From a virus (taxonomy: Duplodnaviria > Caudoviricetes): 30,531 bases of DNA. Position 1 is the stretch's first letter, and each line of letters begins with the position of its first letter. The stretch lies in the IMG/VR virus record IMGVR_UViG_3300030376_001117, positions 1 to 30,531 of that record. One strand, given 5' to 3'. Below are positions 12,086 to 20,476 of this stretch, piece after piece. The position numbers were made by a program, and so were the translations under genes. The notes under the pieces are model-generated. The model searched no databases. It was not told the origin of the DNA and saw only the letters and a program-made list of their open reading frames with translations.

Positions 12086-13249
12086 TTATTGAACTGCATA
12101 TTTACCAAAGTTTGGTCTGCTCAATATTGAATAAGTAGCATATCTGGATGCATCTATAAGGTGGTCATTTTTTTGTACTGGCTTATTTGTTAGTTTACCG
12201 CTTCTGTCCTCTAACCATTTATAATTTCTAAACTCCATTATTAGATTGTTGCTATCACTCGTTAAATGTATCTTAAAACGCTTTAAAAGGTCTATGCCAG
12301 CATTAATACTGTCTCTGCCTTTTAAACTTGGCTGAACATTATGACCCATCCTCCTTAGTTCTGCAATTAAGCGAGGTTCTGCTGCATCAAAATAAATAGT
12401 ATTACGACCTACGCCTACAAGCTTAAAATGGTCGCTTAAATCCCTTGTAGTCATCATTGTTCTATAAAGATGCTCTTTAATATATAAGTTATGTTCTTTT
12501 TTGTAGACTGAAACTAAGGTGCTAGGGTCATTAGTATATCCTGCATCTGCACCATAAGAAATAAACTCTGCATCTTCTGGTATCTTAACACATTCATAGT
12601 AATTAAATATAGTTGCTTTACTTGTACCCTTTTCTCCTAATCCGTATATCTGCCAATACTGCTCATCAGTTTCTTTTAAACGTTCTATTTCTTTTATGAT
12701 TGATTTATCTAAAAAAGGATTATCGTTGTATGTAGTTATGTAAAACTCAACATCATCTCTGGTAAGCACCTTATCGTATATCCAATGGTATTCATCACTT
12801 GGGTTATAATCTAATACTATCTTATCTGTTGTTCTAAATATAAGCTGCTGCCAGTCTTCATACTCTAACTCATTAGCTTCATTAATGAATAATAAATCCC
12901 TTTTACGTCCTCTTATCTTTTGTGGCTGATCTACACTTATAAACTCAACTAAATTGTTGTTAAGAATATACTCGCTTGAAGATTTGTTATGAAGTTCCTC
13001 TCTATAAAAATTATGCTGCTTAAGTATATCTATAAAGTCACGCATAACAGTTGCCCTTACACTAGGAAATGTTTTACGTGCTATTGTTATAGTTTTTTGG
13101 CGTTGCCTTAAACAATAATTAAAAATAAGATAAAGCAAAATATTAAAGGTTTTTCCAGACCTTGTACCACCTTGTTCTACTATTATTTTCTTTTTGCTAT
13201 TTAATAGATGCTTATAAACAACATTAGTTTGTATCTTCGGTCTTATCAA
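12086..13249 (-). CDS. terL: Terminase large subunit (PBSX/SPP1-like family)
   Basis: Walker A QGGTRSGKT, Walker B LFINEANE, DYNP coupling motif, RNase H-like DAGYTNDP and NDHLIDASRYA. Confidence 0.95.
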   Translation of the reverse strand: MIRPKIQTNVVYKHLLNSKKKIIVEQGGTRSGKTFNILLYLIFNYCLRQRQKTITIARKTFPSVRATVMRDFIDILKQHNFYREELHNKSSSEYILNNNLVEFISVDQPQKIRGRKRDLLFINEANELEYEDWQQLIFRTTDKIVLDYNPSDEYHWIYDKVLTRDDVEFYITTYNDNPFLDKSIIKEIERLKETDEQYWQIYGLGEKGTSKATIFNYYECVKIPEDAEFISYGADAGYTNDPSTLVSVYKKEHNLYIKEHLYRTMMTTRDLSDHFKLVGVGRNTIYFDAAEPRLIAELRRMGHNVQPSLKGRDSINAGIDLLKRFKIHLTSDSNNLIMEFRNYKWLEDRSGKLTNKPVQKNDHLIDASRYATYSILSRPNFGKYAVQ

Positions 13250-13580
13250 TTATTTCTATTTGAAAGTTATTAGGCATACCATCAGCGCCTGTAATTTCTT
13301 GTCTTTCAATATAGCCTCTTTTCTTTCCTTTTGTCTTTAAATAGAAAATAGTTGCAGCAGTTGAGTTATCAGATATTTGTTTATGCAATTGACTTTCAGC
13401 AAAATCTAATGCTACATTTTGCAAATCATCTACTTTATTTCTAAAATCCTCATCATTATTGTACCACTCATAATAAGTAGTTCTTCCTACATCTACCCTT
13501 TTACAGGCTGTTGTAACTATACCTAAACTTTTCTCAAGTGCTTCGAGTAATGCCTTTTTATGGTGTTCGGTTTTGTTCAT
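13224..13580 (-). CDS. terS: Terminase small subunit
   Basis: N-terminal HTH (GIVTTACKRVDVGRTTYYEW), ATIFYLKTKGKKRGY; directly upstream of terL. Confidence 0.85.
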   Translation of the reverse strand: MNKTEHHKKALLEALEKSLGIVTTACKRVDVGRTTYYEWYNNDEDFRNKVDDLQNVALDFAESQLHKQISDNSTAATIFYLKTKGKKRGYIERQEITGADGMPNNFQIEIIDKTEDTN

Positions 13581-13593
13581 ATAATTTTATTAG

Positions 13594-13664
13594 AGCGATA
13601 GGGTGGAATTGAACCCCTCTTCCTGACTGGAATGTCAGGCGTGCAACCATTACACTTCTATCGC
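13594..13664 (-). tRNA. Non-canonical tRNA-Gly(UCC)-like RNA
   Basis: GCGATAG AA GTGT AATGGTT GCAC G CCTGA CATTCCAG TCAGG AAG AGGGG TTCAATT CCACC CTATCGC T: perfect 7-bp acceptor stem, U73, D-loop GG, TTC loop; but A8, 8-nt anticodon loop, broken T stem, no encoded CCA. Confidence 0.85.
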
Positions 13665-14234
13665 ATTTTTAGGATATTCTTTTTTTAATTTACTACACGT
13701 TTTTTTTAATTCATTTGTTAAAGGATAAATATACTTATATTTTCCTGATTTTTTTCTTTTAGGTATTTTTCCTCTCAAGCTTTTAGGTATTCTAGATATA
13801 ATTCTTTTGTGTCTCCATTTACCTTTGTAATATATTTCCTCGCCACTTGTTTCAGTTTCATCTATTAATATCCAATTAGTAGCTTGATATATTATACCTT
13901 TATGATTTTGTCCTTTGTCTGCATAACTAAATAATAATTTTACTAGTGGGTAATTTTTTTTAATTAGTCTAATTGCTATTGCCATTGCTTTACTTGTACT
14001 CTCCTGTTTACCATTTAAAGCCATTCTTGTTAATTCTAAAAACTGACCGCCTACTAATCCAAATTTTTTTCCTAGATTATAATTAGCACCTGCTCCAAAT
14101 GTTATACATCCACTCCATTCATTATTTTTATTATAAACATTATAAGCAACTTGAGTTACAGGAATTGCTTTAGCATAATGAAAATTCAAACAAGCATATT
14201 TTATGGCTTTATATGAAGCAGGCTCTAATCTCAT
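13650..14234 (-). CDS. mom: Mom-family GNAT-fold DNA adenine modification enzyme
   Basis: 194 aa with FHY, GCITFG, ELTRM, SYADxxQxHxGxIYQATNW, KYKYIY and terminal YPK motifs characteristic of Mom-like proteins. Confidence 0.8.
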   Translation of the reverse strand: MRLEPASYKAIKYACLNFHYAKAIPVTQVAYNVYNKNNEWSGCITFGAGANYNLGKKFGLVGGQFLELTRMALNGKQESTSKAMAIAIRLIKKNYPLVKLLFSYADKGQNHKGIIYQATNWILIDETETSGEEIYYKGKWRHKRIISRIPKSLRGKIPKRKKSGKYKYIYPLTNELKKTCSKLKKEYPKNAIEV

Positions 14235-14755
14235 TATGATACAGAATAAAAAGAATTTTTATAATTTTTTAATATATATTTAAGTTCGAGTTCTGCACTT
14301 TCTAAATCATCTATATTACTAAAAGTAATTTTAATTGATGGTTTAGAATCTTTTTCATCTCCAATTAAATCTTCAGGACTTGGCATTTCTTCAAACTCTA
14401 AAGGTAAATCCAAACCCCAGGCATCTAACTCATTTACATCCCAACCATTAGCTATCATATCCCAATCCCATTCACCAAATCCAACATTATCTTTTACAAT
14501 AAATTCTCTTTGTTGTTGTTCTGTTAAGTCATCTGCCTTTAATACCCACACTTCTTTAAGTCCAGCTTCTTTACAAGCTTTTAATCTCATATTACCACCA
14601 AGAACTACCATATTATTATTTACAACAATAGGTCTAATTTTAAGCATTTCGGGAAAATCTTTTATACTTTTAACAAGTTTTTTGAATTTATAATCTTTTA
14701 TAAATCTTGGGTTTTTTAAATTTGATTTTATACTATTTATTTTTAATAACTCCAT
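14234..14755 (-). CDS. ParB/Srx N-terminal-domain protein
   Basis: NPRFIK..KLVKSI..RPIVV..VLGGNMRLKAC..IVKDN..GEWD motifs; TAATG-coupled to the Mom-like gene. Confidence 0.85.
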   Translation of the reverse strand: MELLKINSIKSNLKNPRFIKDYKFKKLVKSIKDFPEMLKIRPIVVNNNMVVLGGNMRLKACKEAGLKEVWVLKADDLTEQQQREFIVKDNVGFGEWDWDMIANGWDVNELDAWGLDLPLEFEEMPSPEDLIGDEKDSKPSIKITFSNIDDLESAELELKYILKNYKNSFYSVS

Positions 14756-15140: not shown

Positions 15141-15262
15141 ACTACTTCTTTTTCTACTTTCTTGTATATAGCGTATCCGTTTTCTTTTAACAGTTGTATA
15201 GCTTCTTCTATTTGTTTCTGCTTTATTCTATATGTGTCAAATATTTCGTTATGTATTACCAT
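15137..15262 (-). CDS. Small hypothetical protein (41 aa)
   Basis: MVIHNEIFDTYRIKQKQIEEAIQLLKENGYAIYKKVEKEVV; ATGA coupling to the next gene. Confidence 0.65.
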   Translation of the reverse strand: MVIHNEIFDTYRIKQKQIEEAIQLLKENGYAIYKKVEKEVV

Positions 15263-15707
15263 TGTTTTTATTGTTATATTTACTTAAGGGTGCTTTACCC
15301 TCTTTTTCTAATTCTTTCTGTAAGTAAGCTAAGGCTCTCCAAGCTACCTTTGCTGAATGTCTTTGCCCATCTGTGTCTATTGTACCAGCCTCTATTAAGT
15401 GCCTTGCTAGTGCATCTAGTTCGTCTGATGATTTAGCTCTATCCCAATGTAAAGGTTTGTCTGGATGGTGTTGTTGATTACCAACCCAAGATACTTTAGC
15501 TACCTCTCTTATTGCATCTGGGAAGTATTTAAGCACTCCACTATATACAGGCATTTGTTTCCTCTCTTGTTTTACCATTTCTTCATATTGGTAAAATTCG
15601 TCTTCGTCATATACCCCAGCTTTCCATTCTTCGCACTCTAACTCTTCTTGTTCGTTAATTATGTATGCTGTTTCAGTTCCACTAATGTAATCAATCTTTT
15701 TATTCAT
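15249..15707 (-). CDS. dATP/dGTP diphosphohydrolase-like protein (DUF5664-type)
   Basis: FPDAIREVAKVSWVGNQQH...W...DALARHL...DTDGQRHSAKVAWRALAYLQ helical NTP-PPase-like pattern. Confidence 0.65.
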   Translation of the reverse strand: MNKKIDYISGTETAYIINEQEELECEEWKAGVYDEDEFYQYEEMVKQERKQMPVYSGVLKYFPDAIREVAKVSWVGNQQHHPDKPLHWDRAKSSDELDALARHLIEAGTIDTDGQRHSAKVAWRALAYLQKELEKEGKAPLSKYNNKNNGNT

Positions 15708-18627: not shown

Positions 18628-18758
18628 AAGTCTAAATCAATATCGTTCCACTCTTGCCTACGTTTATCACACCCACAATCTTCTCCCCAAATCTTTTTGA
18701 CTATGTAGCGTATGCCTGTGTAATATGTTATGTAATATACTATATCTCCTAATCTCAT
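18615..18758 (-). CDS. Small protein with DCGC motif (47 aa)
   Basis: MRLGDIVYYITYYTGIRYIVKKIWGEDCGCDKRRQEWNDIDLDLWNK; ATGA-coupled to the sigma gene. Confidence 0.7.
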   Translation of the reverse strand: MRLGDIVYYITYYTGIRYIVKKIWGEDCGCDKRRQEWNDIDLDLWNK

Positions 18759-19249
18759 AATTGGTCTTTTATGTGTTTTAATGCGTTCCTATATGTATTA
18801 TATAAACTATAATAACTTATATTAGTTTCTCTGCTTAGTGATGCTACACTTTGACCAGATGCTACTAAAGTAAATACCTTTTGGTCATACCAACGCATAT
18901 TGTTTAGTATTGTATCTATTGCTTCTTTGTTTTTTGCATACTCTGCCTCATCAATGCCTAAAACATTTATTTGTTTTAATTCTGCATCTATGTCCTCTAT
19001 GTATGTTTTTATCATTCGTGCCTCTTTCTTGTGGGTGTTGAGGTATATTCCTCGTAAAACTTTATATACATAATAAGTGTTAATGTCGTTATTGTACCAT
19101 AGGTCTAACCCTTTTTGAACATCACATATGAGCTGAATGTACATTTCTTGTACAATATCCTCAGCATAGCTAGGTTTACAACCAAAACTTTTAACAATGT
19201 TTATCCAAATTTTATGCTTATCGTAAGCAAGTTCTACTAATGATTTCAT
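18755..19249 (-). CDS. ECF-type RNA polymerase sigma factor-like protein
   Basis: Region 2-like AEDIVQEMYI and region 4-like HTH SGQSVASLSRETNISYYSLYNT; 164 aa. Confidence 0.75.
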   Translation of the reverse strand: MKSLVELAYDKHKIWINIVKSFGCKPSYAEDIVQEMYIQLICDVQKGLDLWYNNDINTYYVYKVLRGIYLNTHKKEARMIKTYIEDIDAELKQINVLGIDEAEYAKNKEAIDTILNNMRWYDQKVFTLVASGQSVASLSRETNISYYSLYNTYRNALKHIKDQL

Positions 19250-20100: not shown

Positions 20101-20132
20101 TGTAGGTTTTGCTTTGTTTTTGTTAAAGGTAT

Positions 20133-20158
20133 AAAAAAAAGGGGGTAAAAAACCCCCT
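20133..20158 (-). terminator. Rho-independent terminator
   Basis: AGGGGGT-TTTTT-ACCCCCT followed by a T run. Confidence 0.8.
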
Positions 20159-20173
20159 CTTGTAAATTAAAAA

Positions 20174-20476
20174 TTAAAATGGTAGATCAGCTACCTCTTT
20201 TTTCTGTGGCACTTTCTGTACCTCATCTTCTCTTTCAGCTAGGACTATGTTATTATCTGTCCATACTACTTTACCATTAGCAACATACTGACGTTGTTTC
20301 TTAGCCTCTCTTTCTTCTTTTGTTTGATTTACATATACGCTTGTGTTGTTTCCGTATCTTGTTTCATCGTTTACTGCCATTGTTAGGTTTACATAAACGC
20401 TTCCGTTTTTACCAGCTACAAATTTTTCTTTAGGTAGCTTACTAACATCTAAGTTAAAATTAATTATTGCACTCAT
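20174..20476 (-). CDS. Putative single-stranded DNA-binding protein
   Basis: 100 aa beta-rich with an SSB-like C-terminal DLPF tail. Confidence 0.6.
   Translation of the reverse strand: MSAIINFNLDVSKLPKEKFVAGKNGSVYVNLTMAVNDETRYGNNTSVYVNQTKEEREAKKQRQYVANGKVVWTDNNIVLAEREDEVQKVPQKKEVADLPF

What the first reader, a model, noticed from the sequence alone, without database searches (positions are those of the whole stretch)
13594..14755. Mom-like DNA hypermodification gene overlapping its own non-canonical tRNA-Gly: candidate dedicated glycyl-donor system
Seen: the last codons of the Mom-like ORF (...YPKNAIEV-TAA) form the acceptor stem and D arm of a 71-nt cloverleaf (13594-13664). The RNA keeps G1:C72, C2:G71, G3:C70, discriminator U73 and a UCC triplet. 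It has A instead of U8, U instead of A21, an 8-nt anticodon loop (CAUUCCAG), and a T stem with A49.C65 and G51.A63 mismatches (or a bulged A). Established: the retained positions are GlyRS identity elements; pairs 49:65, 50:64 and 51:63 set EF-Tu affinity; staphylococci use EF-Tu-avoiding tRNA-Gly species as donors for GNAT-fold Fem transferases; phage Mu Mom is a late GNAT-fold enzyme making N6-carbamoylmethyl-adenine. From memory and to be verified, Mom has been reported to use Gly-tRNA-Gly. Inference: the phage co-transcribes a private tRNA that is chargeable but excluded from translation, supplying glycine for anti-restriction adenine modification. The unit sits between a ParB-domain gene and terS/terL under a late promoter, linking modification to packaging. 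tRNA 5' processing would also cut off the mom stop codon, a possible autoregulatory link.
Basis: partly seen in the sequence, partly recalled or inferred. Interest (0 to 1): 0.92.

Follow-up and report, generated by a model that had tools for sequence, protein, structure and literature searches.

The report
Phage Mom gene with private tRNA
This phage's gene for Mom, an enzyme family that disguises DNA using glycine taken from charged glycine tRNA, ends inside a conserved, oddly built glycine-tRNA look-alike that travels almost only with Mom genes and is likely the enzyme's own glycine carrier, which no experiment has yet tested.

Summary
Confirmed. ORF 13650-14234 is a Mom protein (Pfam, PHROG, best fold match Mu Mom; R111, S124 and D149 kept, R151 not). 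A 71-nt tRNA-Gly-like RNA (13594-13664) overlaps its last 15 bases. All 80 related viral mom loci carry the RNA, with strong covariation. Of 104 copies found by DNA pattern with long flanks, 103 lie beside mom; 0 of 51 mom-less sister phages have it. GlyRS marks (G1-C72, C2-G71, G3-C70, U73, C35, C36) are fixed. Decoding marks (U8, U33, N34, loop size) drift, and an A bulges from the EF-Tu-binding T-stem in 80 of 80. A third of copies are antisense, most with their own promoter motif, so the overlap and the proposed autoregulation are not general; no late promoter was found. Likely a dedicated glycyl donor (about 0.7); charging, EF-Tu exclusion and transfer are untested. Against: Mu Mom works with host tRNAs, and most distant mom loci lack the RNA. 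A 2011 paper noted such a pseudo-tRNA in Dehalococcoides mom genes without proposing a function, and this scan noted the pairing before on other DNA.

The parts
13650..14234 (-). mom: Mom-family GNAT-fold DNA adenine modifier, 194 aa
   Evidence: PF25680 E 4.5e-32; phrog_1384; PDB 8bv8 by sequence E 1e-9 and by fold E 7e-13, TM 0.73-0.76; Mu H58, Y59, R111, S124, D149, Y159, W181 align to H19, Y20, R70, S81, D106, Y116, W140; R151 aligns to G108 and W48 to K9
13594..13664 (-). tRNA-Gly-like RNA, 71 nt to U73; C74 at 13593; CCA not encoded
   Evidence: Rfam RF00005 37.9 bits; family model 86.7 bits, matched by construction; covariation score 0.752 against 0.212 in shuffles
13650..13664 (-). 15-nt overlap: last four mom codons and the stop are tRNA positions 1-15
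   Evidence: Sequence; this arrangement holds in 31 of 80 relatives
13627..13634 (-). 8-nt anticodon loop CAUUCCAG with C35, C36 and a C32-G38 pair
   Evidence: 7-nt loops with U33 in only 11 of 35 non-redundant relatives against 12 of 12 host tRNA-Gly
13604..13604 (-). bulged A in a 4-bp T-stem, two pairs from the acceptor stem (51:63 region)
   Evidence: 80 of 80 viral relatives (79 in this exact register), 0 of 12 host tRNA-Gly
14234..14755 (-). ParB_N-domain gene, coupled to the mom start
   Evidence: PF02195 E 1e-4, below the curated cut-off; PHROG ParB-like; upstream of mom in 67 of 67 relatives with enough flank, 13 too short
13224..13580 (-). terminase small subunit (neighbour), starting 13 nt after the RNA
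   Evidence: phrog_4044 E 1e-7
12086..13249 (-). terminase large subunit (neighbour; used as the control anchor)
   Evidence: PF04466, PF17288

Best explanation
The window encodes a Mom-family enzyme and a conserved tRNA-Gly-like RNA that is likely charged with glycine by the host synthetase, predicted to be ignored by EF-Tu and the ribosome, and likely used by Mom as its own glycine donor to modify adenine in phage DNA against restriction. Shown: Mom identity and fold, the RNA's structure, its tie to mom, and the split between fixed GlyRS marks and drifting decoding marks. From print: Mu Mom transfers glycine from Gly-tRNA-Gly to N6-adenine. Inferred: release by RNase P and 3' trimming, CCA addition, glycylation, poor EF-Tu binding because of the T-stem bulge, activity of this particular Mom, and preferential use of this RNA.
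For: RNA beside mom in 80 of 80 viral relatives. Reverse test on loci with over 700 nt on both sides: 71 of 71 viral and 32 of 33 metagenome RNA copies have mom. Sister phages picked by terL with 2 kb or more upstream: 9 of 11 with mom carry the RNA, 0 of 51 without mom (loci are related, so the Fisher p is not a true probability). 97.3% of cells pair and 17 of 21 pairs show compensatory change. G1-C72, C2-G71, G3-C70, U73, C35 and C36 are kept in 80 of 80 viral, 20 of 20 non-redundant genome and 3 of 3 cultured-phage copies; these include the bacterial GlyRS determinants (PMC9976931). C74 is kept in 80 of 80. CCA is encoded in 12 of 23 genome copies but in none of 8 from Bacteroidota, as for host tRNA-Gly genes. 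U8 is kept in 19 of 35, a decoding-type loop in 11 of 35, and N34 is often A (11 of 20 genome copies); host tRNA-Gly are canonical in 12 of 12. The bulge sits among pairs 49-65, 50-64 and 51-63, which set EF-Tu affinity (PMC3239215). 49 of 66 distinct antisense upstream regions hold TAnnTTTG (shuffle mean 4.9, maximum 11), the Bacteroidetes -7 element (PMC6847099). Identical RNAs sit beside Mom proteins only 33-39% identical. One D-arm-less copy keeps acceptor, CC, bulge and CCA (L320).
Against: Mu Mom works with all three E. coli tRNA-Gly isoacceptors (PMC13219725), and no such RNA lies beside Mu mom, so a private tRNA is not needed for the chemistry. Only 23 of 77 mom loci in cell genomes and 3 of 16 cultured-phage loci examined carry it. 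The three actinophage copies and one genome copy (L318) lack the bulge, and the Appa copy has a strong-binding T-stem and a normal loop. Mu R151, essential there, is not kept in this protein. One full-flank copy has no mom (L400). No paper read measures the effect of a T-stem bulge on EF-Tu ('bulge' has 0 hits in PMC3239215).
Confidence: 0.7

Rival explanations
1. The RNA is a working tRNA-Gly that tops up the general Gly-tRNA pool drained by Mom, and also serves translation.
For: It would explain the tie to mom equally well. 11 of 35 viral copies keep a 7-nt loop with U33, and the Appa copy is near-canonical. GGA makes up 166 of 503 Gly codons in 32 window ORFs.
Against: 8-nt loops in 14 of 35, A or G at position 33 in 13 of 35, frequent A34, loss of U8, a fixed T-stem bulge and a D-arm-less copy do not fit ribosomal use; host tRNA-Gly show none of these (12 of 12).
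Confidence: 0.1
2. The RNA is an inhibitor or antitoxin: a tRNA mimic that binds Mom and keeps it off host or early phage DNA.
For: Strict linkage to mom and own-promoter antisense copies would suit a restraint. Mom toxicity to the host is recalled, not checked here.
Against: C35 and C36, which GlyRS reads, never vary, and CCA encoding follows host custom; both point to charging. A charged Gly-RNA would be a substrate. Many prophage mom loci lack the RNA.
Confidence: 0.09
3. The RNA is a decoy or nuclease-resistant backup against host defences that cut or modify tRNA-Gly, so that Mom keeps a donor.
For: The anticodon loop is remodelled while GlyRS marks stay. TacT acetylates Gly-tRNA-Gly through U73 and G71 (PMC9976931).
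Against: It does not explain the fixed T-stem bulge. U73 and G71, the TacT determinants, are kept. It partly overlaps the donor model.
Confidence: 0.06
4. The RNA acts in cis: its processing cuts the mom message, removing the stop codon and separating mom from terS.
For: In this window and in 31 of 80 relatives the stop lies inside the sense RNA, so an RNase P cut would leave a non-stop mom message.
Against: 27 of 80 copies are antisense, 21 are read through entirely, two lie 340-410 nt away behind an inserted ORF, and three genome copies lie upstream of mom.
Confidence: 0.04

Closest known systems
Phage Mu Mom with host Gly-tRNA-Gly (Silva et al. 2026, PMC13219725; PDB 8bv8; PF25680)
   Same: Same family and fold; R111, S124, D149, H58, Y59, Y159 and W181 equivalents kept.
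   Different: 24% identity over the fold; R151 and W48 not kept; Mu has com upstream and no tRNA-like RNA beside mom. The paper's main text has no hit for 'tRNA-like', 'phage-encoded tRNA', 'overlap' or 'neighbo'; one supplement was searched and one was unreadable.
76-bp tRNA-Gly-like 'pseudo-tRNA' in the mom homologue of Dehalococcoides ssrA genomic islands (McMurdie et al. 2011, PMC3146451)
   Same: Conserved tRNA-Gly-like fold with a DCC anticodon and a 5-nt loop, with mom and ParB, in 16 modules. My model finds such RNAs at the 5' side of mom in Chloroflexota elements (L355, L360, L368).
   Different: There it lies at the 5' end of mom in integrative islands; here at the 3' end in a phage, in either orientation. 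No function was proposed in the passages and section 11 that I read. I did not compare their sequences directly.
Non-proteogenic tRNA-Gly NP1-NP3 of staphylococci, donors for Fem transferases (PMC7826273, PMC12256121)
   Same: Charged by GlyRS, weak EF-Tu binding through T-stem changes, a 32-38 pair closing a 5-nt loop, TGC in the T-loop of some copies, and a GNAT-type acceptor enzyme.
   Different: Chromosomal, and feeds peptidoglycan. EF-Tu escape there is by pair substitution, not a bulge. Their function is shown; this RNA's is not.

Membership tests
Mom (PF25680) | Profile match above the curated cut-off | tested here: met
   111.8 bits against cut-off 27.1
Mom (PF25680) | GNAT fold closest to Mu Mom | tested here: met
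   Model pLDDT 86.8; top hits 8bv8_B and 8bv8_A, E 7e-13, next 3e-5
Mom (PF25680) | Catalytic R111, S124 and D149 | tested here: met
   R70, S81, D106, invariant in 20 of 20 aligned proteins
Mom (PF25680) | R151 (essential in Mu) and W48 (dimer contact) | tested here: not met
   G108 and K9; R151 is also missing from nearly all other family members in the tree, with or without the RNA, so it looks Mu-specific
Mom (PF25680) | Makes 6-NcmdA from Gly-tRNA-Gly on dsDNA | not testable with these tools
   Needs an enzyme assay or virion DNA
Canonical elongator tRNA-Gly | GlyRS marks G1-C72, C2-G71, U73, C35, C36 | tested here: met
   Window and 80 of 80 relatives (determinants)
Canonical elongator tRNA-Gly | U8, 7-nt anticodon loop with U33, unbroken 5-bp T-stem | tested here: not met
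   A8, 8-nt loop, 4 bp plus bulged A in the window; hosts meet all in 12 of 12
Non-proteogenic tRNA-Gly (works-like) | Loss of G49-U65 and G51-C63 EF-Tu determinants | tested here: met
   No 49-65 G-U pair, and the 51-63 region is broken by the bulge; most hosts show G49-U65 and G51-C63
Non-proteogenic tRNA-Gly (works-like) | Glycylated, weakly bound by EF-Tu, preferred by the partner transferase | not testable with these tools
   Bench assays needed
Non-proteogenic tRNA-Gly (membership) | Staphylococcal lineage feeding Fem enzymes | tested here: not met
   Phage-borne and tied to mom; lineage described as staphylococcal only
Integration-site (attP) copy of a host tRNA | Near identity to host tRNA-Gly and an integrase nearby | tested here: not met
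   Alignment score 0.47-0.60 per base to 13 host tRNA-Gly from five genomes, true host unknown; no integrase among 35 window ORFs scanned

The most novel reading that the evidence does not exclude
Many phages and integrative elements carry a two-part DNA-hypermodification cassette: a Mom enzyme plus its own non-translating tRNA-Gly cofactor, marked in most clades by a bulged A that excludes EF-Tu. It would be a virus-encoded tRNA whose only job is to donate an amino acid to DNA, and it is exchangeable between distant Mom clades.
Probability: 0.6. Interest if true: 0.88.

Novelty: new variant of a known kind. Interest (0 to 1): 0.78.

Why it matters
Phage tRNAs are usually explained as translation aids or as backups against tRNA-cutting defences. 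This one would serve DNA chemistry instead, and it would answer how Mom competes with EF-Tu for Gly-tRNA. It gives the 2011 Dehalococcoides 'pseudo-tRNA' a testable role. It predicts that many Mom homologues work best with their neighbouring RNA, which matters for activity screens done with the protein alone. It offers a natural single-base T-stem bulge as a candidate EF-Tu anti-determinant. Cultured phages (Arthrobacter BarretLemon and Wyborn, Microbacterium Appa group) make a related, unbulged form testable now. ARAGORN at default settings found nothing or an undefined tRNA in most of the 60 loci scanned, so the family is under-annotated.

Tried and rejected
Expression: the one RNA run offered (X1) held a 168-nt contig on mom and nothing on the RNA; uninformative. 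Late promoter: sigma-70-type sites were at chance level (36 against 37.7), and no TAnnTTTG lies on the minus strand between 11803 and 17983; claim dropped. Mismatch register of the T-stem: rejected. attP remnant: rejected. Reading the loop as CCA (Trp): rejected, because acceptor and discriminator are Gly-type in every copy. R151 loss as a marker of RNA use: rejected, since RNA-less homologues lack it too. ParB as partner of the RNA: not supported; ParB is upstream in 3 of 16 RNA-bearing and 34 of 49 RNA-less genome loci. The second-round Mom profile could match peptide encoded by the RNA itself, so I recounted with core-only matches and report those. Rfam at the gathering threshold with fast filters found only 3 of 20 copies. 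Loci with short flanks (67 RNA copies without a Mom call) were set aside as uninformative, and 9 pattern hits not parsed as tRNA were left out. A family-wide genome search around the Chloroflexota locus was not obtained, so the Dehalococcoides sequences were not compared directly.

Full report
Observation. The window is a 30.5-kb virus record, 31% G+C, with all genes on the minus strand. ORF 13650-14234 matches Pfam Mom (E 4.5e-32) and PHROG Mom-like. Its AlphaFold model (pLDDT 86.8) is closest to Mu Mom, PDB 8bv8 (E 7e-13; next hit 3e-5). Mu H58, Y59, R111, S124, D149, Y159 and W181 have identical counterparts; R151 and W48 do not. Rfam finds a tRNA at 13594-13664 (37.9 bits) that ARAGORN misses. 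Its first 15 bases are the last four codons and the stop of mom. A ParB_N gene lies upstream and terS/terL downstream.

Is the RNA real? I took the best 80 of 232 confirmed viral relatives of mom (57-100% identity; redundant, and one is identical to the window). A script requiring GCG...CGC, at least 6 of 7 acceptor pairs and CC in the anticodon region found a copy in 78. The covariance model found the other two, 340-410 nt downstream. On 70 non-redundant copies, 97.3% of cells pair, 17 of 21 pairs show compensatory change, and the covariation score is 0.752 against 0.212 shuffled and at most 0.168 slid. The structure was drawn from these sequences, so that control leans in its favour.

Is it tied to mom or just to the terminase region? 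Three tests. Among loci with over 700 nt on both sides, 71 of 71 and 32 of 33 tRNA-like hits have a Mom domain nearby. 67 short-flank RNA hits without a Mom call and 9 hits not parsed as tRNA were set aside. (b) Among 78 sister loci picked by terL, those with at least 2 kb upstream split into 9 with mom and RNA, 2 with mom only, 0 with RNA only and 51 with neither. (c) Identical RNA sequences sit beside Mom proteins only 33-39% identical, and the RNA marks at least two deep Mom clades, with orientation flipping many times on a quick FastTree.

What is kept and what drifts. In the 80 mom-anchored copies, G1-C72, C2-G71, G3-C70, U73, C35, C36 and C74 never change; U73, C74 and the bulge were not required by the finder. 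These include the bacterial GlyRS determinants (PMC9976931, passages). Among 35 non-redundant copies U8 is kept in 19, the loop has 8 nt in 14, position 33 is A or G in 13, and only 11 have a 7-nt loop with U33. Positions 32 and 38 are complementary in all 35 (C-G in 26), and N34 is A in 11 of 20 genome copies. Twelve distinct host tRNA-Gly from five genomes are canonical throughout. Every viral copy has an unpaired A in the T-stem, two pairs from the acceptor stem in 79 of 80, with 4 pairs (27 of 35) or 5 (8 of 35). This lies in the 49-65, 50-64, 51-63 region that sets EF-Tu affinity (PMC3239215, passages); that a bulge blocks EF-Tu is my inference. CCA is encoded in 12 of 23 genome copies (Clostridium, Acidobacteriota, Gemmatimonadota, Chloroflexota, one Woesearchaeota bin) and in none of 8 from Bacteroidota, matching the host tRNA-Gly genes sampled. 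One copy (L320) has lost the D-arm yet keeps acceptor, CC, bulge and CCA (E 0.002).

It acts as its own RNA. 27 of 80 copies are antisense to mom. 49 of 66 distinct antisense upstream regions contain TAnnTTTG within 40 nt (shuffles: mean 4.9, maximum 11; sense copies 13 of 93), the Bacteroidetes -7 promoter element (PMC6847099, passages). This also suggests Bacteroidota hosts for this clade. Among sense copies the stop lies inside the RNA in 31, the ORF runs through it in 21, and it stops before it in 1. The overlap seen here is therefore one layout of several, and autoregulation cannot be the shared purpose. In this window the RNA would come from a long transcript: no terminator-like site lies on the minus strand between 16950 and 11565, and no promoter was identified.

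Limits of the link. Only 23 of 77 mom loci from cell genomes carry it within about 2.5 kb. Of 213 cultured-phage records with a Mom match I examined 16 loci: the RNA overlaps the mom end in Arthrobacter phages BarretLemon and Wyborn and lies antisense after mom in Microbacterium phage Appa. It is absent near mom in the other 13, including Mu, A511 and phiEf11. Ten Appa-group records annotate tRNA-Gly there. These actinophage copies have no bulge. BarretLemon has the weak A51-U63 pair and no G18G19; Appa looks able to bind EF-Tu. Mu Mom accepts all E. coli tRNA-Gly isoacceptors. The RNA is thus an optional accessory.

Mechanism. Most likely (0.7): the RNA is cut out or separately transcribed, gains CCA, is glycylated by host GlyRS, escapes EF-Tu, and feeds Mom, which glycylates N6-adenine to protect phage DNA from restriction. 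This parallels staphylococcal non-proteogenic tRNA-Gly, where EF-Tu sequesters normal Gly-tRNA from FmhB (PMC7826273, abstract and introduction). Rivals: general pool top-up (0.10), inhibitor of Mom (0.09), defence-resistant backup (0.06), cis processing (0.04). Nothing here shows expression, charging or activity.

What is known. Silva et al. 2026 (PMC13219725; abstract, sections 9, 10, 13, 14 and 38 read; term searches of the main text and one supplement; one scanned supplement unreadable) establish Gly-tRNA-Gly as the donor; in what I read and searched they mention no element-encoded tRNA. McMurdie et al. 2011 (PMC3146451; passages and section 11; supplements not read) describe a conserved tRNA-Gly-like 'pseudo-tRNA' in the mom homologue of 16 Dehalococcoides islands, with no function given in what I read. 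Seven library searches aimed at Mom plus tRNA found no paper proposing a dedicated donor; subscription journals are largely missing. PMC7824862 (passages) still assumed an acyl-CoA donor; PMC12256121 was seen as passages. The 2023 preprint 10.1101/2023.03.24.534169 was seen only as a listing. Earlier notes of this scan report the same pairing on other DNA, mostly at the 5' end of mom; they are unchecked and are not counted as support.

Verdict. Real, conserved and specifically linked to mom; a new variant of a known kind, joining Mom chemistry with a dedicated-donor tRNA. Interest 0.78.

Noticed in passing
L320:1938-2003 (+): D-arm-less version of the RNA right at the mom 3' end, keeping acceptor stem, CC loop, bulged A and encoded CCA.
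   Followed up: partly
L110:1564-2977 (-): Two tandem Mom paralogues precede one copy of the RNA.
   Followed up: no
L400:1454-1537 (+): The only full-flank copy without mom within 1.5 kb; it sits just before a terS-like gene and may be a leftover after mom loss.
   Followed up: partly
L074:1888-2241, L022:989-1339: A similar ORF of about 100 aa is inserted between mom and the antisense RNA in two phages.
   Followed up: no
L355, L360:2421-2493; L368:1880-1952: Chloroflexota elements have the RNA upstream of mom and ParB downstream; L368 has a serine-recombinase-like ORF, resembling Dehalococcoides ssrA islands.
   Followed up: partly
L003, L024, L034, L281, just past the mom stop: Short G+C hairpins lie between the mom stop and the 3' end of antisense RNA copies, possibly two-way terminators.
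   Followed up: no
L209-L246 (terL control set): Close sister phages carry a distant Mom clade with an antisense RNA at the same spot, while most have no mom: the cassette swaps in and out upstream of terS.
   Followed up: partly
window 15249-15707 (-): dATP/dGTP diphosphohydrolase N-terminal domain (PF18909, E 2.7e-10), a family often found with base-modification genes (recalled); 500 nt upstream of parB.
   Followed up: no
window 18755-19249 (-): Weak match to an RNA polymerase sigma factor (phrog_1740, E 5.5e-5); could drive the parB-mom-ter transcript.
   Followed up: no
window 20127-20205 (-): Weak L20_leader and model hit; looks like an intrinsic terminator hairpin, not a family member.
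   Followed up: partly
G005 (L306, L327, L343): One Chitinophagaceae genome holds three mom loci, each with a near-identical RNA (ACC triplet, 8-nt loop).
   Followed up: no
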